Virus genome (UHGV): UHGV-0115240
From: a virus
Direction: 5' to 3' (one strand)
DNA length: 59,150 nucleotides
The position numbers and the translations under genes are program-made. Positions 1 through 59,150 of this stretch are shown in pieces (the first letter of the stretch is position 1; the number at the start of each line of letters is the position of its first letter). The notes beneath the pieces were generated by a model. It had not been told where the DNA came from. It saw only the letters and a program-made list of their open reading frames with translations, and ran no database searches.

Positions 1-215
1 TGCGGCGATGCTTGGGTGTGCGGCGATGCTCGGGTGTGCGGCGATGCTCGGGTGTACGGCAATGCTCAAGTGTACGGAAATGCTCTGGTGTGCGGCGATG
101 CTTGGGTGTGCGGCGATGCTCGGGTGTACGGCGATGCTCAAGTGTACGGCGATGCTCGGGTGTGCGGCGATGCTCGGGTGTACGGCGATGCTCAAGTGTA
201 CGGCAATGCGGACTA
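1..215. repeat. 18-bp coding tandem repeat (consensus TGCGGCGATGCTCGGGTG / TACGGCAATGCTCAAGTG), about 12 copies. Two further copies lie at 59110-59150.
   Basis: The 18-nt periodicity is visible directly. Each unit encodes a [C/Y]G[D/N]Axx V hexapeptide pair. Confidence 0.85.
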
Positions 216-420
216 CGCATATGCTCACGGTTTCGGATCTGTCAACCGCACAACGACTTTTTTTCGACTTAAAAACGGAAACGTAGGGGTTGTATGCGGA
301 TGTTTTCACGGTACACTTCAGGAGTTTAGAGATAAGATCCGAGAGACACATGGAGAAACAAAAAAAGCACAAGAATATTTAATGTTAGCGGACTTAATGG
401 ATTTCAGATTCAAAAATTAA
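1..420 (+). CDS. C-terminal part of a hexapeptide-repeat (left-handed beta-helix-like) protein. It continues the ORF that starts at 58971 across the window junction.
   Basis: Frame 1 is open from nt 1. It reads CGDAWV/CGDARV/YGNAQV units with an exact 6-aa period, then a non-repeat tail ...NGNVGVVCGCFHGTLQEFRDKIRETHGE. The end of the window (..DAWVYGNALV) joins in frame and in repeat register. Confidence 0.6.
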   Translation, partial: CGDAWVCGDARVCGDARVYGNAQVYGNALVCGDAWVCGDARVYGDAQVYGDARVCGDARVYGDAQVYGNADYAYAHGFGSVNRTTTFFRLKNGNVGVVCGCFHGTLQEFRDKIRETHGETKKAQEYLMLADLMDFRFKN

Positions 421-4093: not shown

Positions 4094-4909
4094 ATGTCAG
4101 AGAATACACAGGTAGTAACACAGAATGCAGGAACGGTAGCACAGAAACCAAAGACATTTGATATGGCTTTAATGGAGAAACTGGATAGCGTGAATGACGC
4201 ACTTCCGAAAGATTTTAATAAACAGAGATTCGTGCAGAATACTCTTGCGCTGATCCACGATAACCCAAAACTCATGGAGTATAAGCAGTCGGAGATTATG
4301 TCCGGCTTGATGAAAGGTGCTACGCTGGGCTTGGACTTCTTCAACAAAGAAGCATACCTCGTTCCATATGGAAGCCAGTTGAATTATCAGACGGATTATC
4401 GTGGAGCAAAGAAACTCGCAAAAAAGTATTCTATCCGTCCAATCAAGGATATTTACGCAAAACTTGTTCGTGAAGGTGATGAATTCGAAGAAGTTATCGA
4501 AAACGGAGAGCAGGGAATCAACTTCAAACCAAAGGCTTTTAATGATGGAAAGATTATTGGCGCATTTGCAGTGTGCTTATTCGCCGATGGGGGAATGGTA
4601 TACGACACAATGAGCCTTGCAGACTTGGAGAACACAAGAAAATCCAGTAAGGCGAGCAATTCTCCGGCTTGGAAGAATTTCACCGGGGAAATGTATAAAA
4701 AGACAGTGCTGCATAGACTTTGCAAACATATTGAACTTGATTTTGAGAATCCGACTCAGCAGAGTAACTTTATGGCTGGAATGGAAATTGAAACAGATGT
4801 AAGCGAGATTGCACACAGAGAAATCGCAGAAAACGAAAATTCACAGCCATTTGAAGTTGTGGCAGACGTGGAAGCGAAAGAAGAACCAAGTTTCGTGACG
4901 GAGGGATAA
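4094..4909 (+). CDS. recT: RecT-family single-strand annealing recombinase.
   Basis: Segments align with E. coli RecT: GLDFFNKEAYLVPYG, DYRGAKKLAKK, AKLVREGDEFEEV and WKNFTGEMYKKTVLHRL. Confidence 0.9.
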   Translation: MSENTQVVTQNAGTVAQKPKTFDMALMEKLDSVNDALPKDFNKQRFVQNTLALIHDNPKLMEYKQSEIMSGLMKGATLGLDFFNKEAYLVPYGSQLNYQTDYRGAKKLAKKYSIRPIKDIYAKLVREGDEFEEVIENGEQGINFKPKAFNDGKIIGAFAVCLFADGGMVYDTMSLADLENTRKSSKASNSPAWKNFTGEMYKKTVLHRLCKHIELDFENPTQQSNFMAGMEIETDVSEIAHREIAENENSQPFEVVADVEAKEEPSFVTEG

Positions 4910-13061: not shown

Positions 13062-13279
13062 GAAAGACCAAAACAAACGAAGCCCAGCGCCAGAAGCAGG
13101 CAGAGAACATCCGACGGCGTGGGATTGAGCAGATGGCAGAGCATGATCCTTCGGAGTCAGCAAAGCGGCAGATGCAGCACAAGCCATACCAGGCGGCGGC
13201 GCTGATCCGGGAGCAGGGAGAGCAGATGCGAAGAGAAACAGCAGAATCTTGGTTAAAACGAAAAAATGTATTAATTTAA
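13055..13279 (+). CDS. Small basic hypothetical protein in a locally GC-rich patch.
   Basis: AGGAGG RBS, then ATG. Local GC is visibly elevated. Confidence 0.35.
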   Translation: MLRKTKTNEAQRQKQAENIRRRGIEQMAEHDPSESAKRQMQHKPYQAAALIREQGEQMRRETAESWLKRKNVLI

Positions 13280-13299
13280 TAGAAAGGAACTTAAGGCTT

Positions 13300-13713
13300 A
13301 TGCGATTAGGAAAATATTTATCCTCATTGACTAAGCCAGAACTTGAAGAATTAAAAAATGTATGCAATTTTGTAGATGAAGATTTAGTTATTATTGATTG
13401 TTTGATAAGAGAGAAAAGCTATGAAGAAATTTCATCTTACATAAAATGTTCTACAGCAACAGTGGGAAGAAAAATATCAGCAATCAGAGATAAAGTAGAA
13501 GGAAGTGAATTAGATATGAAAAACAAGGTTCCTATATGGGAGAAAGCAAATCTAACGATCGAAGAAGCCGCGGAATATAGCAATATCGGGATTTGTAAAT
13601 TAAATGAGATATCAAAAGACCCAAAATGTACGTTTGTTCTTTATGTCGGAAGAAAAAAATTGATAAAAAGAAAGGAATTTGAAAAATTTTTAAATAATAC
13701 TTTAGAGTTGTAA
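13300..13713 (+). CDS. Putative HTH DNA-binding protein, sigma-r4/LuxR-like plus excisionase-like, lying immediately upstream of the integrase.
   Basis: SYEEISSYIKCSTATVGRKISAIR is HTH-like, and LTIEEAAEYSNIGICKLNEI is a second HTH. The position suggests an excisionase (Xis) role. Confidence 0.4.
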   Translation: MRLGKYLSSLTKPELEELKNVCNFVDEDLVIIDCLIREKSYEEISSYIKCSTATVGRKISAIRDKVEGSELDMKNKVPIWEKANLTIEEAAEYSNIGICKLNEISKDPKCTFVLYVGRKKLIKRKEFEKFLNNTLEL

Positions 13714-13792
13714 TATAGACATATGAGCCTTATTATAGTATTATATAGGACTATATCAAGGCTCTTTTTCTTTTGGAAGGAGATATAATACT

Positions 13793-14926
13793 ATGGGAAA
13801 GGATTTAAAAGGAAAAGAGTTAGGTGTTGGAATTTCTCAAAGAAAGGACGGGTTATATACAGCAAGATTTGTAAGTAAAGCAACCGGAAAATCTATTCAA
13901 AAATATTTTCCTAAATTACAGGAATGTCGGAAGTGGTATGCGGACGCTAGGTTCCAAGATGAACATGGTGGAATCAATGCAAGCGGGAACATGACAGTTA
14001 AAGCTTGGTTTGAATATTGGATTACAACTATTAAAGGGAACAGTATTCGACCAAACACAATAAGAAATTATAAAGAAAGATTCAAACACAATATTGATCG
14101 TTGCATAGGAAATATGCTCATATCAGAAGTAAAGCCAATGCATTGCCAAAACGTATTAAATCAGATGAAAGATGATTATAAAACTTCAACGATATATCAA
14201 ACTAGAATTACTTTGTATTCAATGTTTTCAGATGCTGTCGAGAATGATGTTATACTAAAGAACCCGGTAACAAAATCTGTTAAGTATAATATAGGGAAAG
14301 AGCCTAAAAAAGTTCGCGCATTGACTATTGAAGAGCAAAAGAAATTTTTGGAAACTGCAAAAGGTACTAGCAATTATAATCAGTTTGCTTTTTTATTACA
14401 AACTGGATTGCGTACCGGGGAACTTATCGGATTAAAATGGTCTGACATTGATTTTAAGAGAAAGGTAATGCATATAGAGAGAAGTATGGAATACAGACAC
14501 TCTGTTGGCGAATGGCGAATAGGAGAACCCAAAAGTAAATCTGGATATCGCGACGTTCCTTTAACAGAAGAAGCTATTTCTATATTAAAAAAACAAAAAG
14601 AAAAGTTGAAAGAAATAAAAGTGATCAATATTCAGTTTAAAGACTTTGTGTTTTTATGCAGAAAGGGTGAGCCAACAAAGAATTCTGCTTACGATACGTC
14701 CTTATTTAAATTATGTGACAAGGCTGGTATCGATAGATTTTCAATGCATGTTCTAAGACACACGTATGCAACTAGAGCAATAGAGGGAGGAATAAGACCC
14801 AAAACATTGCAAGTTATTTTAGGGCATTCGAATGTTGGTATCACCATGAATCTATACGTGCATGTTACAGAAGATGAAAAGTTAAAAGAGGTAGAAAAGA
14901 TAGAAAAAGTCCTAAAAATTGTGTAG
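13793..14926 (+). CDS. int: Tyrosine site-specific integrase.
   Basis: Catalytic box R...HVLRHTYATRAIEGG...LGHSNVGITMNLYVH (R-H-R-Y). Confidence 0.9.
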   Translation: MGKDLKGKELGVGISQRKDGLYTARFVSKATGKSIQKYFPKLQECRKWYADARFQDEHGGINASGNMTVKAWFEYWITTIKGNSIRPNTIRNYKERFKHNIDRCIGNMLISEVKPMHCQNVLNQMKDDYKTSTIYQTRITLYSMFSDAVENDVILKNPVTKSVKYNIGKEPKKVRALTIEEQKKFLETAKGTSNYNQFAFLLQTGLRTGELIGLKWSDIDFKRKVMHIERSMEYRHSVGEWRIGEPKSKSGYRDVPLTEEAISILKKQKEKLKEIKVINIQFKDFVFLCRKGEPTKNSAYDTSLFKLCDKAGIDRFSMHVLRHTYATRAIEGGIRPKTLQVILGHSNVGITMNLYVHVTEDEKLKEVEKIEKVLKIV

Positions 14927-15213
14927 TAAATTGTGTAGTAAAAATATAGAGAAAGGCGAAAACCCGTAAAATTGCAGGGTTTTTAGACAGGTAAAGATAA
15001 AAATGAAACTAGGTATTGTAATTTATTGACTAAAATTATATATATCTATAAATAATTATAAATACATATAAAACAGCAATTTTGCGTTGCTTTGATAGAT
15101 TTTGTAAGTTATAAATATCTATAACAATCTATATGTTTTTATACGAAAATTGTGTAGTGATTGTGTAGTAAATGTGTAGTAAATTTTATAAAGAGCCTTG
15201 ATATAAAAATGAA
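14919..15213. promoter_or_regulatory. attP-like region: an AT-rich core flanked by five copies of the direct repeat TTGTGTAGT(A/G)A, which look like integrase arm-type sites.
   Basis: Repeat copies at about 14922, 14934, 15149, 15161 and 15174. A hairpin AAAACCCgtaaaattgcaGGGTTTT lies after the int stop. The tract between is extremely AT-rich. Confidence 0.55.
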
Positions 15214-24454: not shown

Positions 24455-25297
24455 ATGGGTCCATATATAAGCCTTATTAATGCATATGATGCTTTAATCG
24501 AGAGTGGAGTGGAGATGTGCCCGATCGCACATACTTATATGACGGTGCATATTGCTGTATTGTTAAACCTAAAAGGGGAATTCCTTTGCGCAAAAATCCC
24601 GGATATTAAAGGGGAGCTTGTAAGAGTACCTTGTACGGATGAGTCTGGGCGCAGAACGAGCGGAGATTATCCGCACTTGTTGCATGATAATTTATGCTAT
24701 GTTGCTCCTTTTGGATCAAAACCAGACAGACACGAAGCATATATATCACAGCTCAGAGAATATACAAAAGCAAAGCCCGAAGACATGTATGCTACCGCGA
24801 TATATAATTACGTTAAAAACGGGGATATTTTGCATGATTTAAAAGATATAATCTCAAACTTTGACCTAAAAATGCCATTAGATAAAGCAAATGTTGCTTT
24901 TGCGGTATATGGATTAGATAACGACGGCACAGATCTATATTGGACGGAATACTATTTATCCACTCTACATAAAAACGGAATTTGTGCTGTGACTGGTGAG
25001 CCTGATTATATTCCGTCAGCTTATCCGGCTTGTATTATATCCCCATCGGGAAAAGAAAGATTTTTTTTAAAAGACTGTGGGGTAGGCTATGTTGCATCAC
25101 AAAAAATCATACACGCAATACAATACTGGGCGTATGGAGCCAAAAACGCAGCAAGAGTTAAAACGGAATCGTATATACAAGACTACATGCACGGGAAAAA
25201 AACAGAAGATGAGCTTAAACAGTGGATTGATGAGAGGTATCCGGGAAAATGGGGCGGTTTTATAAATATATTAAAAAAAGGAGAAGCAGAAAATTAG
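24455..25297 (+). CDS. Hypothetical 280-aa protein.
   Basis: ORF with RBS AAGGAGGGG. I recognise no motif. Confidence 0.4.
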   Translation: MGPYISLINAYDALIESGVEMCPIAHTYMTVHIAVLLNLKGEFLCAKIPDIKGELVRVPCTDESGRRTSGDYPHLLHDNLCYVAPFGSKPDRHEAYISQLREYTKAKPEDMYATAIYNYVKNGDILHDLKDIISNFDLKMPLDKANVAFAVYGLDNDGTDLYWTEYYLSTLHKNGICAVTGEPDYIPSAYPACIISPSGKERFFLKDCGVGYVASQKIIHAIQYWAYGAKNAARVKTESYIQDYMHGKKTEDELKQWIDERYPGKWGGFINILKKGEAEN

Positions 25298-49234: not shown

Positions 49235-49641
49235 ATTGGATAACACCAAAAACAAATTGGGTATCTACAGACAGAATGAATTTAGAAGATTACAACCGAA
49301 TAAAGAACAACATTACATACTTGAAAGAAAAAGCAAATGAAGTTAACAAAGAATTTTCTATTCAAAACATGGGAGAAGATATTGTTGATTATTTGGAGTT
49401 GTGGGATTATGAGAAATTCAATTTGTTTGAGGGTAATATAGAAAAGATAAATCAATCAATTTTCACACAGGATATCGGAATCAAAAAGACGTTCTATCCG
49501 AATGGAATGTTTATCAAATACGATGAACTTAACAGATTGGAAAAAGCATGTGAAAAAATGAAAGATATTATTGAAAGACAGACTATCGGTCTTAGAAAAA
49601 TTCCATTTATTCTTGGAAGATTTAAGGAGGTAAGAATATAA
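49225..49641 (+). CDS. Hypothetical tail protein.
   Basis: 138-aa ORF. Confidence 0.35.
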   Translation: MALDWITPKTNWVSTDRMNLEDYNRIKNNITYLKEKANEVNKEFSIQNMGEDIVDYLELWDYEKFNLFEGNIEKINQSIFTQDIGIKKTFYPNGMFIKYDELNRLEKACEKMKDIIERQTIGLRKIPFILGRFKEVRI

Positions 49642-50303
49642 TGCCAAAGCAAGAATTACCTGTTAATTTTAAAGATGATATATTAGCTTCAAGCATGGCT
49701 GGAAAAAGAAAGTACTTAATTACTCAAAACGAAGATGCAAGCTATTCTTTGGAAGACGTAACAGATTATACTCAATCCGGGAGTAATCTAGGGGCTAAAC
49801 AAATTAATGAAATATGCCAAGCTATAAACGATTCCGCCGATAAATCTAGAATCATAGACAATCTTGATGATATAGTGGCGAACAAAACACCGGGGATGAT
49901 CGCAGGAGCGCAGGCTGTAGCTGCGCTAAATGCATATTTGTTACAATTACAAGCGCATCATGATAAAAAGACGCTCACACCGACCGATCTGGGAATAAGG
50001 GTCGGAGTGTGGACAGCCATAGCAAACAACTCGTATAAAATCGGTAAAACGATACACCTAAATATGGAAATTTATACAACTGCCACAATAGTCGCGAATA
50101 ATGTGTACGACAATGTTTTTACGATACCGTCACAGTATCGCCCGTTAAATGATACTGTTGTAAATGTGACAGCGTCAGATGGGTCATATAAAAATCCGGT
50201 GGCCTGCACATCTATGGCAAGGACAAACGGAAATTTGTTTATCTGCATACCAAAAGCAACAAACAGCTATCTTTTTATCGATGCGGAGTGGGAAATTAAA
50301 TAA
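49641..50303 (+). CDS. Small tail-fiber or adhesin-like protein. Its C-terminal roughly 116 aa lie inside a putative invertible segment.
   Basis: The ORF carries ...LNAYLLQLQ... at the left inverted repeat. Confidence 0.45.
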   Translation: MPKQELPVNFKDDILASSMAGKRKYLITQNEDASYSLEDVTDYTQSGSNLGAKQINEICQAINDSADKSRIIDNLDDIVANKTPGMIAGAQAVAALNAYLLQLQAHHDKKTLTPTDLGIRVGVWTAIANNSYKIGKTIHLNMEIYTTATIVANNVYDNVFTIPSQYRPLNDTVVNVTASDGSYKNPVACTSMARTNGNLFICIPKATNSYLFIDAEWEIK

Positions 50304-50309
50304 CGCTTA

Positions 50310-50694
50310 TCACTTCCACGTTCCACGCGCGTAATAGGATAAATCAAAACTTGCTGTATTCCATACCGTAGCAGCAAGCAAATGGTATGAAAAGCTTGAT
50401 TTGTAGTCATTTGCAGATCCGTACACCTTGCCCCATATCGCGCCGCCAGCTCCTATTGTGAGCACGATATTACATTTTGTTTTTGATGCAACCGGGAAGT
50501 TTAATGTAAATTGTCCGCTTGTGTAAATGCTACCAGCTTTTGTTCCGATCGCGCACGTAAATGGAGAATTGAACCACATTTCAAGAGTTCCGTCGCTCCA
50601 TTTGCGATATTTACCATTAGCATTGCTATCTTCTTCGATAACATGATTTTTGACTTTTCCAGTTTCAGGTTGCAACTCCAACAAATACGCATTA
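50310..50694 (-). CDS. Alternative C-terminal cassette (silent in this orientation). It begins NAYLLELQ... and has no credible RBS or start of its own.
   Basis: The minus-strand ORF converges on the 49641 gene with stops 6 bp apart. Its first conserved residues NAYLLELQ mirror NAYLLQLQ in the plus gene. The upstream part of the annotated 157-aa ORF is antisense to the RBS region of the 50723 gene. Confidence 0.45.
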
Positions 50695-50722
50695 TTCAAA
50701 CAAATAAAAAGGAGAAATACAT

Positions 50723-51901
50723 ATGGCATATATAAGATTCTTAGGAGAAAAAACTCCGCACAAAGCAACCGTAATTCCGACAAATAATATCGTTACGGTT
50801 AAGTTTGGAACTGATGTAATAGAAAATAAAAATGGGTTTGATCTATTTCTTGATAAAGAATGCACAATAGATATCGGCGGGACTTTTTATCAAAAATTTA
50901 CAACTATTTACAGGAATGATTCTGTTACAAAAAAGTACAACGGATATCAATTATCAAACGACGGAAGTGTATATGTCGAGCCTGAAATTTCTCCTAATCC
51001 TAAACCTTACAACCCTACATTGGATGAGGTAAAGGAAAGTAAAAAAGCGGAAATTAGGATGAAAGTACAAAATGAAATATTGTCAGATGTTATGATAGCG
51101 TCTTATGCGTTTGGCTACAACGAATCTGACATGATTGCCATTAGAAACGCATACGAAGACAGTATTTCAAGCGGAATGTCAGTTATTTTAAAAGATTCAA
51201 CCGGACAGTCACGAGAATTGAATGAGGAAGAAATTACTGACTTGTATAAAAAGCAAGAGATCAAGCGTTTGGAAAAAGAAAGTTATGCGCAGTGTTTGTT
51301 GGATTATATTGATGGATTAACGAGCAAGGAAGCGGTTAATTCGGTTGAGTACGGCGATGAATTAACAGGAAAATATCTCGAAAAGTATAACGAAAAGGTA
51401 TCAAACACTCAAAGTTACATCGAAAAAGTGATTAGCGGTAAAAAAGCGGTTGTGGATCAGGCAAAAATCGCTTCTCTCACTAATACGGACGCACAAGCCG
51501 TTGAAGTAAAAGGGCTGTACGCAGATTGGGAAGATGATCCAGACGGGTACGCATATGATGTACAAAACCAAAAAGATAAAAGAAGAAACTTTGGAGGGCT
51601 CTTGTGGAATCTGAATAAGAATCACCAGAAACAAAAGGACCGTTTTCCGGGGGCAGAACCTACATTGTGGACACAGCTTGTCGAAGGTTACGAAGGATCG
51701 TATTCAGATCCTATTCCCGTGCCAGATAGCGTAAACGTAAGTGGATTTGAATATGAATACGGGAAGTATTATATCGAAAATGAGTTAGTTTATTTGTGTA
51801 AGAGAGGTGGAGTTCTTAATCCAGAATCAATGTATGGTCAAAAAGAAAAATTGTATTTTAAACCATCGGCACTCATTGGACAATATTTTGAAATAGCGTA
51901 G
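50723..51901 (+). CDS. Tail fiber or receptor-binding protein.
   Basis: 392 aa with a C-terminal DPIP...KYYIENELVYLCKRG...LIGQYFEIA module shared with the 54819 gene. Confidence 0.45.
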   Translation: MAYIRFLGEKTPHKATVIPTNNIVTVKFGTDVIENKNGFDLFLDKECTIDIGGTFYQKFTTIYRNDSVTKKYNGYQLSNDGSVYVEPEISPNPKPYNPTLDEVKESKKAEIRMKVQNEILSDVMIASYAFGYNESDMIAIRNAYEDSISSGMSVILKDSTGQSRELNEEEITDLYKKQEIKRLEKESYAQCLLDYIDGLTSKEAVNSVEYGDELTGKYLEKYNEKVSNTQSYIEKVISGKKAVVDQAKIASLTNTDAQAVEVKGLYADWEDDPDGYAYDVQNQKDKRRNFGGLLWNLNKNHQKQKDRFPGAEPTLWTQLVEGYEGSYSDPIPVPDSVNVSGFEYEYGKYYIENELVYLCKRGGVLNPESMYGQKEKLYFKPSALIGQYFEIA

Positions 51902-52172: not shown

Positions 52173-52574
52173 ATGAGAGCAGACGAAGTATATGCAATCT
52201 TGTTAAAGAAAATTAGAAGTAGCGGAGGAGAGATTTCATCAGAGCAGCTTCAGGAAGCGATTAAAAATTATTTGCAGAAAAATCCGATCAGTACAAACAT
52301 AAAAGAAGAACGTCCTCAAGAAACTACATATGCGTTAAAACCGAACGTACAAGCAGTATGGGGAGAAGTTGCAGAGTTAAATTTAACGCTTGAAGAAGAG
52401 TTGCCTGATGCTGTAAATATCTATCCGTTTTGGTTCACAAGCGGATCAACACCAACTAAGGTGATATTACCGTCAACAATCGCGTTAGATGGATTCGATA
52501 CACAAGCAAACAAGAAATATTGTTGTCAGATTGAACAAAATGTAATGTTTTGGAAGGAGTTTGATATTACATGA
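52173..52574 (+). CDS. Hypothetical tail protein.
   Basis: 133-aa ORF. Confidence 0.35.
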   Translation: MRADEVYAILLKKIRSSGGEISSEQLQEAIKNYLQKNPISTNIKEERPQETTYALKPNVQAVWGEVAELNLTLEEELPDAVNIYPFWFTSGSTPTKVILPSTIALDGFDTQANKKYCCQIEQNVMFWKEFDIT

Positions 52575-54145
52575 TACTTTTAAAAAGAAGAGCTTTTATG
52601 ACTTGCAAATTTAACTACGAAACGTCAAAAGGAATAAAGCAAATAATATTGACAAATTGTGCACAAGCTCCTTTTAAACAATTTAGTATACTAGGTAATT
52701 CACACCAAGATAGTACAACTGGGAAGCAGTTGTTTAAACTAACAGACAATTATTTACATGCATATTTTTATCACGGAGAAAATAAAGAAATTGTACCATA
52801 CATTAATAATGCTGTGGTGTATTTGCCCTGTGAACCAAACACAACTTACACAATATATGGTAGAAAAAATATTAACAACGACATGACAAGAAAAAATAGG
52901 GTTGGTTTAACATCGGAACTTCCGGCGTTTAATGTTAAGCTTACTAAAACGGCTGAAACAACATTAGATAAACCTGTGACTATTACTACCGAAGAAGATA
53001 CAAAATATCTTGTTATAATGGCTATTACCGATGGAGAGATTGGGAAGTTAAATTTTGATAAGGTTCTTGAGAATAACACATCTAAGCTTATGGTGGAGGT
53101 TGGAGACAAAGCATCTCCTTATGAGCCATACACAGGCGGTAAACCATCCCCATCACCCGATTATCTACAAGAAATCAAGAGTGTCGGAAAATGGAATGAG
53201 AAAACACAAAAATATGAAGTCGATATAAAAGTTACAGGAAAGAATTTATTTGATATAGATAGTTTTTTAAAATTACCATTGCAACCTGTGAGTGGAAACG
53301 ATAGCGTTAGAAAACTTATATTGACTTTGAAACCAAACACAAAGTACACTTTATCAACAAATAACGAAGGTATTTGCAATAGTCAAGATAAAGACACAAG
53401 TGGAAGTTTATATTTTACAAATGCTGATGATGAAATATATCAATGTAATACTACCGCAGTTTTTAAAGGGAAAAAAGTAACGGTGACAAGCGATGAAAAC
53501 GGTCGAGTGAAAATTGTCTTATTTGACAGAACAAATTCTAAACCTATCGAAAACAAACAGTGTTATGTAATGTTAAATGAGGGAACTTTTGCCGAGCCGT
53601 ATGAACCATATTTCCCCGAACAGACTGCTACAATAACAATGGATGAACCTCTTAGGGGCATCGGAAAATATCAAGATAAAATTACAAAAGATGGGATTGC
53701 TAGAAGAATCAGAAGCGTTATGTTAAATGGGAATGAAGATTGGAAGCTTTATGGAAGTAACGGAAACATCAATAATTTTGGGTATATACTTAGAGAAGCC
53801 ATTAGTAATAATGTGGGGCAAAGGTCGTCTTTAACTTTTTCATCATATAAGTCCGGAGTTTGGGCAACTGATAGGTTAGGGCAAGATATGTTCGCGAGGG
53901 TTATAAGAATTAATTTGCCTAAAGATGTGTTTCCTGATGTAGAAACGCTAAGAAATTGGTTGTCACAAAGCAAAACTACATTGCAATATGTGTTAGAAAA
54001 AGAGGTGATAGTCCCTATCTCACAATCCGAACAAGATGCAATCAGAGCATTAACAACATACCATCCAACAACAGTTATCACGGTAGACGGTGGAGACGTA
54101 GATGCGGGAATTGAAGTGGAATATGCTACGAAAAATAAGGAGTAA
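52571..54145 (+). CDS. Tail fiber or host-specificity protein.
   Basis: 524 aa, position. Confidence 0.4.
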   Translation: MILLKRRAFMTCKFNYETSKGIKQIILTNCAQAPFKQFSILGNSHQDSTTGKQLFKLTDNYLHAYFYHGENKEIVPYINNAVVYLPCEPNTTYTIYGRKNINNDMTRKNRVGLTSELPAFNVKLTKTAETTLDKPVTITTEEDTKYLVIMAITDGEIGKLNFDKVLENNTSKLMVEVGDKASPYEPYTGGKPSPSPDYLQEIKSVGKWNEKTQKYEVDIKVTGKNLFDIDSFLKLPLQPVSGNDSVRKLILTLKPNTKYTLSTNNEGICNSQDKDTSGSLYFTNADDEIYQCNTTAVFKGKKVTVTSDENGRVKIVLFDRTNSKPIENKQCYVMLNEGTFAEPYEPYFPEQTATITMDEPLRGIGKYQDKITKDGIARRIRSVMLNGNEDWKLYGSNGNINNFGYILREAISNNVGQRSSLTFSSYKSGVWATDRLGQDMFARVIRINLPKDVFPDVETLRNWLSQSKTTLQYVLEKEVIVPISQSEQDAIRALTTYHPTTVITVDGGDVDAGIEVEYATKNKE

Positions 54146-54818: not shown

Positions 54819-55535
54819 ATGAATACAAGTTTTGGAAAATTAGAAAACGGAATATTGATACATGCACCTTCCGTATTACGTGTTGATGACAAACAGATTG
54901 TATCTCCTGATGAAACAGATTATCTTAATAGCGGTTATTTGCCGATATTAATAGAAGACAATTTGGAATACAAGGAAGGATTTGAAATTGTCACCTCCTA
55001 TAAAGTTGTTGAAGAAAGCCAAACACTTGCCGGAGAAATGATTCCGAAACATATTTTGAGGGTTCAGGAATATCAGGAAATTTTTGAAACTCCATACATC
55101 CCTACAAAAAACGATCTTGCGATGGAGCTTATGACGGTGAGAATTACAAAAGAAATTAACACTTATAATCTCACAAAATATGAAGCAATTCGTTATAAGT
55201 GGCTACACCCTACATTTAGTGAAATCGTTGGACAAACGGTGAAAAAAGGATTCAGGTTTGTTTACGAAAACGAACTCTATTCCGTAAATCAAGATAACCT
55301 CACGATTCAGGCGCATTGTTTGCCCGGAACTGGAACGGAAAGTTTGTACGAAATTGTGGATGAGGAACACAGTGGAACAAAAGATGATCCTATCCCGTGG
55401 AGAAAAAACATGCAATGTTACAAAGATAAATATTATATTCAAAATGAGATTGTGTACAAATGCACGAGAGACTCAGGAAATGCATTGCAAAATGATATCA
55501 TAGATTTGATCGGACATTATTTTGAAATTGCATAA
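54819..55535 (+). CDS. Tail fiber or receptor-binding protein, a paralog at the C-terminus of the 50723 gene.
   Basis: DDPIPWRKN...KYYIQNEIVYKCTRD...LIGHYFEIA. Confidence 0.45.
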   Translation: MNTSFGKLENGILIHAPSVLRVDDKQIVSPDETDYLNSGYLPILIEDNLEYKEGFEIVTSYKVVEESQTLAGEMIPKHILRVQEYQEIFETPYIPTKNDLAMELMTVRITKEINTYNLTKYEAIRYKWLHPTFSEIVGQTVKKGFRFVYENELYSVNQDNLTIQAHCLPGTGTESLYEIVDEEHSGTKDDPIPWRKNMQCYKDKYYIQNEIVYKCTRDSGNALQNDIIDLIGHYFEIA

Positions 55536-58970: not shown

Positions 58971-59150
58971 GTGAAGAAATTTGAACTTACAAGTGAATTT
59001 GTGACAAATATTTCCGGGACAAAGCTGTTTCGGATCAAAGCTCTGGTTGAGTTCGGTGACGTGGAAGCCGGAGAACTGGGAGGATACATAGAGAAGGAAG
59101 AAAACCTTGATCATGACGGCGATGCTTGGGTGTACGGCAATGCTCTGGTG
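58971..59150 (+). CDS. N-terminal part of the hexapeptide-repeat protein, running off the window end and continuing at nt 1.
   Basis: VKKFELTSEFVTNISGTKLFRIKALVEFGDVEAGELGGYIEKEENLDHDGDAWVYGNALV. RBS AAGTGAGGA. Confidence 0.55.
   Translation, partial: MKKFELTSEFVTNISGTKLFRIKALVEFGDVEAGELGGYIEKEENLDHDGDAWVYGNALV

What the first reader, a model, noticed from the sequence alone, without database searches (positions are those of the whole stretch)
49928..50694. Convergent alternative C-terminal exons flanked by about 27-bp inverted repeats: candidate DNA-inversion (Mu G-segment-like) host-range switch with no invertase gene in sight
Gene 49641-50303 (+) and a start-less ORF 50310-50694 (-) converge with stops 6 bp apart. 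Left repeat: AAATGCATATTTGTTACAATTACAAGC at 49928-49954, inside the + gene, encoding NAYLLQLQ. Right repeat: the reverse complement of 50668-50694, TAATGCGTATTTGTTGGAGTTGCAACC, encoding NAYLLELQ at the head of the minus cassette. The two match at 20 of 27 positions, with a 14-nt near-perfect core AATGC(R)TATTTGTT. Inverting the 49955-50667 segment would fuse the constant N-terminal 96 aa to a completely different C-terminal domain of about 118 aa. This is the logic of the Mu Gin/G and P1 Cin/C tail-fiber switches. It is unusual in a Firmicute siphophage. No serine invertase is encoded in the window; the only recombinase is the tyrosine integrase.
Basis: seen in the sequence. Interest (0 to 1): 0.75.

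Follow-up and report, generated by a model that had tools for sequence, protein, structure and literature searches.

The report
Flippable receptor-binding tip of a gut phage
A gut Lachnospiraceae phage carries a spare, backwards-facing tip for its receptor-binding tail protein, and sister prophages are caught with the same DNA segment in both orientations, so this is a DNA-inversion host-range switch; here it has no invertase gene of its own and looks rarely used or locked.

Summary
Gene 49641-50303 (+) and a start-less ORF 50310-~50699 (-) converge 6 bp apart. Each variable part begins with the same in-frame motif (NAYLLQLQ / NAYLLELQ), encoded by a 24-nt, 79% inverted repeat.

The inversion reading is supported by comparison with relatives.
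- In [Ruminococcus] torques-type prophages carrying close homologues of the same two cassettes, otherwise 99.6-100% identical contigs differ by a clean 773-bp inversion between 21-24-nt repeats at this junction.
- A second flipped pair exists.
- The silent cassette is intact in every complete locus and is under purifying selection (dN/dS 0.11-0.30).
- The two tips have different predicted folds: TP901-1 RBP head versus pyocin-fibre foot/H-type lectin.
- A site consensus built from other lineages hits the window only at the two predicted places.

Two things qualify this. All 33 loci of the window's own lineage show one orientation, and its repeats share only an 8-nt perfect core. The complete 59-kb phage also encodes no recombinase except a genuine tyrosine integrase, whose attP lies in ychF. 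The invertase is therefore unidentified and probably acts in trans.

Verdict: a new variant of a known kind of switch. It is Mu-G-like in logic but is not a Gin/Hin family member.

The parts
49641..49928 (+). Constant N-terminal part of the receptor-binding protein (residues 1-96). It runs into an alpha-helical neck.
   Evidence: ORF. The same N-terminus (95-100% identical) is fused to cassette A or cassette C in relatives. The AlphaFold model has a helix at residues 84-107 spanning the junction.
49929..49952 (+). Left inverted repeat / presumed crossover site. It encodes NAYLLQLQ (residues 97-104). Core sequence: AATGCATATTTGTT.
49953..50303 (+). Cassette A: the currently expressed head domain, with a TP901-1 RBP-head-like fold, through the stop codon.
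   Evidence: PHROG 13141 C-terminal end, E 8.5e-52. Foldseek match to TP901-1 ORF49 (2f0c), E 7.7e-5, probability 1.0. The same cassette occurs as the silent copy in other prophages (P0061; L006-L010).
50304..50309 (.). 6-bp spacer between the two convergent stop codons.
50310..50669 (-). Cassette B: a silent, start-less alternative head domain with a pyocin-fibre-foot / H-type-lectin-like fold.
   Evidence: PHROG 2712 tail fiber C-terminal end, E 1.4e-15. Foldseek match to 6cl5 (R1 pyocin fibre), E 2.8e-4. Intact in 42 of 43 loci, the remaining one being cut by a contig end; dN/dS 0.11-0.30. Fused to N-termini in P0127 and P0134-6 and in L030, L096 and L109.
50670..50693 (-). Right inverted repeat at the head of cassette B. 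It encodes NAYLLELQ. Core sequence: AATGCGTATTTGTT.
50694..50722 (.). Fixed outer flank between the right repeat and the next + gene (start at 50723). It contains that gene's ribosome-binding site. There is no ribosome-binding site or start codon for cassette B on the minus strand.
   Evidence: The promoter scan was not above chance and no terminator was found.
13249..15019 (+). Not part of the switch, but it holds the only recombinase of the phage: a Tn916-Xis-like excisionase (13249-13713), a tyrosine integrase (13793-14926), and an attP core ending near 15019 (..ATGAAACTAGGTATTGT).
   Evidence: Pfam. Prophage junctions with host ychF in L085-L089.

Best explanation
The feature is a two-cassette invertible module in the receptor-binding protein (RBP) gene of a temperate siphophage of a gut Lachnospiraceae host.

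Anatomy. The first ~100 codons are fixed: the baseplate-attachment part and a helical neck. Two alternative head-domain cassettes follow, A (+) and B (-), tail to tail. Each begins with a ~20-24-nt site (consensus AATRMRKATTTGTYRSARKT) that encodes the end of the neck (N-x-Y/D-L-S/L-E/Q-L).

Mechanism. Conservative recombination between the two inverted sites flips the ~765-bp segment 49929-50693. The constant part is then read into B instead of A, giving a predicted product of ~223 aa. Transcription continues into the downstream tail genes in either state. A and B have unrelated predicted folds (TP901-1-type head versus pyocin-foot/H-type lectin), so flipping should change the receptor recognised.

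What is shown:
- the anatomy;
- that both cassettes are selected RBP heads;
- that homologous modules in sister prophages exist in both orientations with identical flanks.

What is inferred:
- that the enzyme is a site-specific recombinase supplied in trans, most likely by the host, because the complete phage genome has only a bona fide integrase;
- that the window's copy, whose sites share only an 8-nt perfect core and which is seen in one orientation only, flips rarely or is locked in A-ON.

The confidence given (0.85) is for 'this is an invertible RBP-head module'. I put 'supplied in trans by the host' at about 0.35-0.5, and 'this copy still flips appreciably' at about 0.4-0.5.
For: 1. Flip pairs. 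L030 and L032/L031 have flanks 99.6-100% identical, with the 773-bp segment between 24-nt repeats inverted. L030 reads N2'-B with A silent; L032 reads N2'-A with B silent. Their cassettes are 90% (B) and 96% (A) identical in protein to the window's.

2. A second pair. L096 (B'-ON) versus L102/L090 (A-ON) has a 15-nt perfect core. L109 is also in the flipped arrangement. The fused N2'-B protein appears in independent ENA assemblies (P0127, P0130).

3. In [Ruminococcus] torques ATCC 27756 the RBP reads N2-A and is followed by a 22-aa inverted remnant of C. That is the flipped, then decayed, counterpart of L007-L010 (N2-C expressed, A silent).

4. Silent cassettes are intact in all complete loci. 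dN/dS is 0.11-0.30 for B, 0.09-0.21 for A and ~0.11 for C.

5. The site consensus from other lineages hits the window only at the two predicted positions, in inverted orientation, with 0 of 100 shuffles matching. It occurs as inverted pairs at this junction across the loci.

6. The folds are different receptor-binding heads.

7. There is no cis recombinase. The window is a complete circular genome: L084 is a 59,205-nt contig with the same gene order, and the window's two ends lie in the same repeat-containing gene. Its only recombinase is the integrase, with attP in ychF. A close relative of the flipping prophages (97.8% identical to L094 over 14.5 kb) instead has a large serine integrase. The two phage groups that share the site type therefore do not share an integrase type.
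Against: - In the window's own lineage 33 of 33 loci are B-silent. The predicted recombinant junctions are absent from IMG/VR and from the metagenome collection, while 15 parental junctions were found there. No N1-B fusion protein exists among 5.8 billion clustered proteins.
- The window's repeats are the most degenerate seen: an 8-nt perfect core, or 14 nt with one mismatch. Lineages where flipping is documented have 15-21 nt perfect cores.
- No recombinase has been identified, and no read-level data could be examined.
- Contigs are consensus sequences. Some mosaics (L027, contig 016145) could be assembly chimeras through the shared module.
- The lysogeny module of the very contigs that flip was not recovered.
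Confidence: 0.85

Rival explanations
1. Locked fossil. The module is an evolutionary relic of such a switch. In this phage lineage it no longer inverts, and cassette B is merely carried along or serves as a reservoir for recombination with other phages.
For: 0 of 33 loci are flipped in the N1 lineage, against 3 of about 11 in the N2' lineage. The repeats are degenerate. No recombinant junction was found. Decay to a locked state is documented elsewhere: ATCC 27756 and L101 have lost the silent cassette and the right site.
Against: B is intact in all complete N1-lineage loci. Comparisons between copies that are both silent give dN/dS of 0.17-0.30 (window vs L027, L028). The 8-bp core TATTTGTT is identical in both sites, which would suffice for strand exchange by a tyrosine recombinase (established knowledge, not tested here). 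Assemblies report only the majority orientation.
Confidence: 0.4
2. Homology-driven rather than site-specific inversion. Flipping is produced by recombination between the short identical repeats, using the phage RecT-type annealing protein or host RecA, with no dedicated invertase.
For: No invertase is encoded in the phage. The window encodes RecT (4094-4909) and a Rad50-like ATPase. The relative L129 encodes a PDDEXK exonuclease and RusA. Flipping is seen only where the repeats are perfectly identical over 15-21 nt, and not in the window, where identity is 8 nt.
Against: Identity of 15-21 nt is far below what RecA or single-strand-annealing recombination uses efficiently (established knowledge). 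The site sequence, including synonymous positions (AAT, TAT/GAT, TTG), is kept across lineages with different neighbouring codons. Breakpoints are precise and the module architecture is conserved.
Confidence: 0.12
3. The phage integrase (with its Xis) doubles as the invertase.
For: It is the only recombinase in the complete genome. Both the attP core end (GGTATTGTAAT) and the repeats (CATATTTGTTAC) are AT-rich and loosely alike.
Against: The resemblance is weak and requires a gap. A close relative of the prophages in which flipping is documented has an unrelated large serine integrase, yet those prophages use the same site consensus. Relatives carrying the same RBP module did not turn up among contigs with a close homologue of this integrase; that search finds only close relatives.
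Confidence: 0.08
4. The minus-strand ORF is an independent small gene (gene callers give it 121-165 aa), or a dead fragment left by a module swap. On this view the repeat is only a shared coding motif.
For: Gene callers do call it (P0121-P0126). The N-x-Y-L-x-E-L motif is a conserved linker of this RBP family. One frameshifted copy exists (P0132).
Against: There is no ribosome-binding site or conserved start. The called starts differ and overlap the next gene's ribosome-binding site. The domain is otherwise always the C-terminus of an RBP. Flip pairs with identical flanks exist. The cassette is under purifying selection.
Confidence: 0.03

Closest known systems
Mu G segment / P1 C segment / e14 P / p15B Min tail-fibre switches (Gin, Cin, Pin, Min serine invertases)
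   Same: The logic is the same. A constant N-terminal part of a tail fibre gene is joined in frame to one of two oppositely oriented C-terminal cassettes by inversion between short inverted repeats. The outcome is an alternative host range.
   Different: There is no serine invertase next to the segment or anywhere in the phage. The sites are unrelated to the 26-bp gix/hix sites (my knowledge of the consensus). Only a ~115-aa head domain flips, with no accompanying U/U'-type assembly gene. The host is a Gram-positive Lachnospiraceae and the virion is siphovirus-like.
Second bifidophage inversion locus (Bb423phi2 / 689b-1) described by Mavrich et al. 2018 (PMC6109161)
   Same: [quoted passage not shown] It lies between very short repeats (8 bp), with no flanking recombinase. 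The authors proposed an invertase supplied in trans.
   Different: It is in an actinobacterial phage, and its genes have no assigned function there. No sequence relationship was tested here. In the present case the cassettes can be assigned to RBP head folds, and the module recurs in many prophages with three or more cassette types.
Rin shufflon of Bifidobacterium prophages and the R64 Rci shufflon (tyrosine invertases)
   Same: Short asymmetric sites sit at the head of each alternative C-terminal cassette of an adhesin/RBP. The Rin cassettes show weak similarity to the TP901-1 RBP C-terminus.
   Different: Those systems carry a dedicated tyrosine invertase gene at the edge of the locus, and several cassettes. 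Here there are two cassettes and no dedicated recombinase.
Lactococcal phage RBPs (TP901-1 ORF49, p2, bIL170) with exchangeable head domains
   Same: The architecture is shoulder/stem, then neck, then head. Cassette A's model matches the TP901-1 head. Engineered head swaps are represented in the PDB (3d8m and 3da0, the chimeric TP901-1/p2 RBP, appear among the hits).
   Different: In lactococcal phages head exchange is an evolutionary or engineered event, not a built-in reversible switch. Cassette B has a different, pyocin-foot/H-type-lectin-like fold.

Membership tests
Gin/Hin/Cin/Pin-type (serine invertase) tail-fibre inversion systems | A small serine invertase gene (Resolvase domain, ~190 aa) adjacent to the invertible segment | tested here: not met
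   No Resolvase or Recombinase domain in about 60 scanned ORFs.
Gin/Hin/Cin/Pin-type (serine invertase) tail-fibre inversion systems | 26-bp gix/hix-type crossover sites (two 12-bp half-sites around a 2-bp core) | tested here: not met
   The sites are AATRMRKATTTGTYRSARKT. They were compared by eye with the hix/gix consensus as I remember it, and no resemblance was seen. This is a weak test because the reference came from memory.
Gin/Hin/Cin/Pin-type (serine invertase) tail-fibre inversion systems | A constant N-terminal coding part joined in frame to alternative, oppositely oriented C-terminal cassettes at the repeat | tested here: met
   Natural fusions of both kinds exist in relatives.
Gin/Hin/Cin/Pin-type (serine invertase) tail-fibre inversion systems | Each variable part carries its own downstream assembly/chaperone gene (U/U') | tested here: not met
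   The segment contains only the two ~115-aa head cassettes, with stops 6 bp apart.
Programmed gene-altering inversion (general class, as in Milman et al. 2023, PMC9881135) | Both orientations of the segment exist in otherwise identical genomes | tested here: met
   Met for homologous modules in sister prophages: L030 vs L032/L031, L096 vs L102/L090, and L109. Not met within the window's own lineage, where 33 of 33 loci show one orientation and no recombinant junction was found.
Programmed gene-altering inversion (general class, as in Milman et al. 2023, PMC9881135) | Intra-population heterogeneity (both orientations among reads of one strain or sample) | not testable with these tools
   No read data are available; only consensus contigs could be examined.
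Tyrosine-invertase shufflons (Rci of R64; Rin of bifidophages) | A dedicated arm-less tyrosine invertase gene flanking the cassette array | tested here: not met
   The only tyrosine recombinase is 35 kb away. It has an N-terminal SAM-like domain, a Xis partner and a demonstrable attP/attR in ychF. No recombinase lies within 6-10 kb of the module in L001-L010, L064, L067 or L083. The one exception is an unrelated integrase beyond leuS in L083.
Tyrosine-invertase shufflons (Rci of R64; Rin of bifidophages) | Three or more cassettes separated by repeated sites | tested here: not met
   Every locus has exactly two sites and two cassettes. At least three cassette types (A, B, C) exist across loci, always in pairs.
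TP901-1/p2-type siphophage receptor-binding proteins | C-terminal head domain with the lactococcal RBP head fold, preceded by a neck and an N-terminal attachment part | tested here: met
   The N1-A model has mean pLDDT 77, and above 90 in the head. Foldseek matches TP901-1 ORF49 structures at E 7.7e-5 to 6e-4, probability 1.0, over about 112 columns. Trimer formation and baseplate attachment were not testable.
Diversity-generating retroelement (considered as an alternative diversifier) | Reverse transcriptase plus a template/variable repeat pair of near-identical sequence | tested here: not met
   No RT was found among the scanned window ORFs. A and B are unrelated in sequence and fold. A relative, L087, does carry RVT_1 plus an Avd-like gene elsewhere in its genome.

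The most novel reading that the evidence does not exclude
The phage's host-range switch is operated by a recombinase the phage does not encode. On this reading a host (Lachnospiraceae) invertase acts in trans on a conserved 20-nt site shared by unrelated prophage families that carry different integrases (tyrosine in one, large serine in the other). The bacterium, not the phage, would then set which receptor-binding head its prophages display. The same module would also serve as a portable two-cassette unit exchanged between phage families.
Probability: 0.35. Interest if true: 0.8.

Novelty: new variant of a known kind. Interest (0 to 1): 0.62.

Why it matters
Tail-fibre inversion switches are textbook for Mu and P1 in enterobacteria and have been proposed for bifidophages. 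I found no description of one in Lachnospiraceae phages in the searchable literature, although these bacteria are among the most abundant in the human gut.

Here the module is small and well defined: a 20-nt site and two ~115-aa heads of different predicted fold. It recurs in [Ruminococcus] torques prophages and in a 59-kb phage assembled as a circle. It lacks its own invertase.

That makes three things directly testable:
- which enzyme flips it (a host invertase acting in trans would be a new host-phage dependency);
- what receptors the TP901-1-like and lectin-like heads bind;
- whether metagenomic 'host range' of gut prophages is underestimated, because assemblies report one orientation only.

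The module also offers a natural scaffold for swapping RBP heads in phages of hard-to-target gut Firmicutes.

Tried and rejected
1. GenBank phage collection: no DNA or protein match to the region, so there were no annotated relatives to lean on.
2. Pfam on the RBP region: no hits. Only PHROGs were informative.
3. Search for the flipped state of the window lineage: the recombinant left junction was absent from IMG/VR and from the metagenome collection. A pattern matching both the parental and the recombinant right junction returned 15 loci, all parental.
4. Integrase as invertase: I mapped attP/attR. The core is only loosely similar to the repeats, so I judged this uninformative.
5. Integrase homologues in IMG/VR share no contig with the RBP-module loci. 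This is weak evidence, because the search finds only close relatives.
6. I walked upstream in the [R.] torques-type prophage family to find its recombinase. I reached a large serine integrase in a close relative (L209). I could not reach the lysogeny module of the exact contigs that flip, because those contigs end first.
7. A serine recombinase next to the capsid gene in L102 is a 537-aa large serine recombinase, probably from another element. I rejected it as a dedicated invertase.
8. Extra matches to the site consensus in L094, L099, L103 and L205 are the C-terminal NADLLEV motif of YopX-like proteins, so they are coincidental.
9. The GTDB genome scan found only one genome, [R.] torques ATCC 27756, and its module is decayed.
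10. The promoter/terminator scan around the module was not above chance.
11. A DGR explanation was rejected: there is no RT in the window and the cassettes are unrelated.
Full report
**1. What is in the sequence**

The window holds a + strand gene at 49641-50303 (220 aa). Six bases after its stop codon lies the stop of a minus-strand open frame, which runs back past 50699 without a credible start. The repeat finder reports arms 49929-49952 / 50670-50693, 24 nt and 79% complementary. Read in the frame of each coding part, the arms encode NAYLLQLQ (residues 97-104 of the + gene) and NAYLLELQ (the head of the minus frame).

As bare DNA the repeat is not better than neighbouring chance pairs. Its significance comes from context. 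A 20-nt consensus built only from other phage lineages (AATRMAKATTTGTYRSARKT, up to 1 mismatch) hits the whole 59-kb window exactly twice, at these two places and in inverted orientation. None of 100 shuffles gave any hit.

**2. Both parts are real receptor-binding heads**

Pfam is silent on the region. PHROGs is not: the + gene matches the C-terminal end of phrog_13141, and the minus frame matches the last 117 positions of phrog_2712, 'tail fiber protein' (E 1.4e-15).

Searches of the 5.8-billion-protein collection gave three results.
- The window's N-terminus (N1) is found fused either to the window's C-terminal type (A) or to a third type (C; P0090).
- B-type domains occur as the C-terminus of full-length homologues (P0127, P0134-P0136, P0142, P0143).
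- A-type domains occur as ~121-aa 'orphan' ORFs (P0061, P0035 and others, some from [Ruminococcus] torques).

The AlphaFold model of N1-A has mean pLDDT 77, above 90 in the head. It has a helix at residues 84-107 across the junction and then a beta-rich head. That head matches the lactococcal phage TP901-1 RBP head (2f0c, E 7.7e-5, probability 1.0), followed by the p2/bIL170 heads and Listeria PSA gp15.

The model of B (pLDDT 77) matches the foot of R1/R2 pyocin fibres (6cl5, E 2.8e-4) and H-type lectins (Helix pomatia agglutinin). The gene is therefore a TP901-1-style RBP, and the two cassettes are unrelated carbohydrate-binding-type heads.

**3. The architecture recurs**

- In L001-L005 (N1 lineage) the expressed head is C and the same silent B follows.
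- In the prophages L007-L010 a different constant part (N2) carries C, and the convergent silent cassette is A. A 26-nt repeat sits at the same junction, encoding INKDL.EL. L006, with the N2' constant part, has the same C-expressed/A-silent arrangement.
- Across all loci fetched, the site consensus occurs as one inverted pair per intact module.
- The four stray hits are the C-terminal NADLLEV motif of YopX-like proteins.

**4. Direct evidence for inversion in relatives**

L030 (IMG/VR 3300029453_000047) and L032/L031 are the same prophage. The flanks are 100% identical over 258 nt on one side and 99.6% identical over 3.6 kb on the other. The 773 bp between them are inverted at 99.7% identity. 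The two alignments overlap by 24 nt at each end, and those overlaps are the repeats (21 nt perfect: AAATAAATATTTGTCGGAGTT).

L030 reads N2'-B with A silent. L032 reads N2'-A with B silent. These cassettes are 90% (B) and 96% (A) identical in protein to the window's.

A second pair exists. L096 runs from the constant part through the repeat into a B' cassette that is 100% identical to the silent B' of L102/L090, in the opposite orientation. L109 is also in the flipped arrangement. In that pair the repeats share only a 15-nt perfect core, followed by ACAATTAC versus GGAGTTAC. This places the crossover in AAATAAATATTTGTC.

The N2'-B fusion also appears in independent ENA assemblies (P0127, P0130).

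[R.] torques ATCC 27756 (L083) reads N2-A followed by a 22-aa inverted remnant of C. That is the flipped and then decayed counterpart of L008. L101 is another locked copy.

**5. Selection**

B is intact in 42 of 43 loci; the exception is cut by a contig end. dN/dS values are:
- B, window versus L027: 0.17;
- B, window versus L028: 0.30;
- B, window versus L029: 0.11;
- B, window versus L030: 0.18;
- A: 0.09-0.21;
- C: about 0.11.

A cassette that is silent in every assembly of a lineage yet evolves under purifying selection must be expressed at times, or must be repeatedly re-imported from expressed copies.

**6. The window's own lineage**

Twenty-six loci are N1-A/B-silent and seven are N1-C/B-silent. 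None is B-ON. By comparison, 3 of about 11 N2' contigs are B-ON.

The predicted recombinant junctions were not found in IMG/VR or in the metagenome collection, while 15 parental junctions were. No N1-B protein exists in the protein collection.

The window's two sites share AATGC(A/G)TATTTGTT: an 8-nt perfect core, or 14 nt with one mismatch. They are the most degenerate pair seen. I therefore rate 'this is an invertible-RBP module' at about 0.85-0.9, but 'this copy still flips at an appreciable rate' at only about 0.4-0.5.

**7. The recombinase**

The window is a complete circular phage genome.
- A 59,205-nt contig (L084) has the same gene order.
- The window's two ends lie in the same beta-solenoid-repeat gene.
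- In L085-L089 the same integrase abuts host ychF-lgt-PFOR. Homology breaks after ..ATGAAACTAGGTATTGT (window ~15019), so the phage integrates into the 5' end of ychF.

The Tn916-Xis-like protein (13249-13713) and the tyrosine integrase (13793-14926) therefore form the lysogeny module. No other recombinase was found by Pfam scans of about 60 ORFs or in six frames.

No recombinase lies within 6-10 kb of the module in any relative.

I walked upstream in the N2' family. A circular 35.3-kb relative, 97.8% identical to the flipping contig L094 over 14.5 kb, has a large serine integrase (L209 8817-10298).

Two phage groups that use the same site type thus carry unrelated integrases. This argues against integrase moonlighting and for an enzyme supplied in trans. 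That step is an inference. The lysogeny module of the exact flipping contigs was not recovered, and no host invertase was identified.

The host of the window phage is a Lachnospiraceae near Faecalicatena / 'Clostridium sp. AF19-22AC' (ychF 91-92% identical). L027 joins N1-type upstream genes to N2'-type downstream genes within the module. This suggests either exchange between the two phage groups in a shared host or an assembly chimera.

**8. Comparison with known systems**

The logic is that of Mu G / P1 C, but the defining machinery is absent: no serine invertase, no gix-type sites, no U/U' genes. The system is also not a Rci/Rin-type shufflon, because it has no dedicated tyrosine invertase and only two cassettes.

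The closest published analogue I could find is the second bifidophage locus of Mavrich et al. 2018 (PMC6109161). That locus is a ~500-bp inversion of a small gene plus the 3' end of its neighbour at an 8-bp repeat. It has no flanking recombinase, and the authors proposed a trans-acting invertase.

Milman et al. 2023 (PMC9881135) list tail fibre genes among targets of programmed inversions and note that some invertible regions lack a nearby recombinase.

I found no description of this Lachnospiraceae RBP-head switch.

**9. Verdict**

It is wrong in the implied family (Gin-like) and in the claim of rarity. It also needs the caveat that this copy is seen in one orientation only.

The feature is a new variant of a known kind. 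The identity of the flipping enzyme is the open and interesting question.

Noticed in passing
window 24455-25297 (+): A 280-aa phage ORF matches the N-terminal part of Pfam Cas_Csd1 (Cas8c), E 6.8e-20. This is a Cas8c-like fragment carried by a temperate phage and could be an anti-CRISPR decoy or a regulator.
   Followed up: no
window 14926-15019, with L085-L089: attP lies just downstream of the integrase. The phage integrates into the 5' end of host ychF and supplies a replacement start (ATGAAACTAGGTATTGT). The window is the excised circular form.
   Followed up: partly
window 1-420 and 59091-59150: Both ends of the window lie in the same YdcK-type beta-solenoid repeat gene (GCGGCGATGCT.GGGTGT repeats; Pfam B_solenoid_ydck). 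The contig was evidently opened inside a repeat.
   Followed up: partly
L087 242-1838 (relative of the window phage): A close relative carries an RVT_1 reverse transcriptase plus a 23S_rRNA_IVP (Avd-like) gene, i.e. a DGR-like cassette. It sits in the early region where the window has unrelated ORFs.
   Followed up: no
L001 6688-6750: Between the C cassette stop and silent B there are two tiny remnants of the A cassette end in opposite orientations (NSYLFIDAEWECA on the minus strand, IDAEWEIK* on the plus strand). Together they form a 23-nt hairpin. This looks like a scar of cassette replacement from an N2-C/A-type module.
   Followed up: partly
L028 2848-3642: Both the A and the B heads are preceded by the same 28-nt outer flank (TGCATCTATTTGAATAATAAAGATTTGT), and the locus ends before any constant part appears. 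This could be a foldback assembly artefact or a detached module.
   Followed up: no
L014 and L090 (IMG/VR contig 3300045988_016145); L027: One IMG/VR contig holds both an N1-type and an N2'-type RBP module. L027 is N1-type upstream and N2'-type downstream, joined inside the module. These are either real mosaics or tandem prophages in one host, or assembly chimeras through the shared ~800-bp module.
   Followed up: partly
P0144 (ENA contig, 1124 nt); window 50723-50881 and 50310-50438: A called ORF fuses the first 53 aa of the downstream gene (50723..) to the last 42 aa of cassette B in sense orientation. The junction is at a short GGCGG-type repeat, so this is probably a foldback chimera.
   Followed up: no
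window 50723-51901 and 54819-55535: Two tail-region proteins share a C-terminal ~120-aa domain (PHROGs 27545 and 30034, function unknown). Gene 52571-54145 varies in length among relatives: 524, 507 and 411 aa. The distal tail module is variable beyond the RBP switch.
   Followed up: no
L083 16100-19970 ([R.] torques ATCC 27756): A strain-specific ~3.8-kb insertion between leuS and the sialidase gene carries a 400-aa tyrosine recombinase, 35% identical to the window integrase.
   Followed up: no
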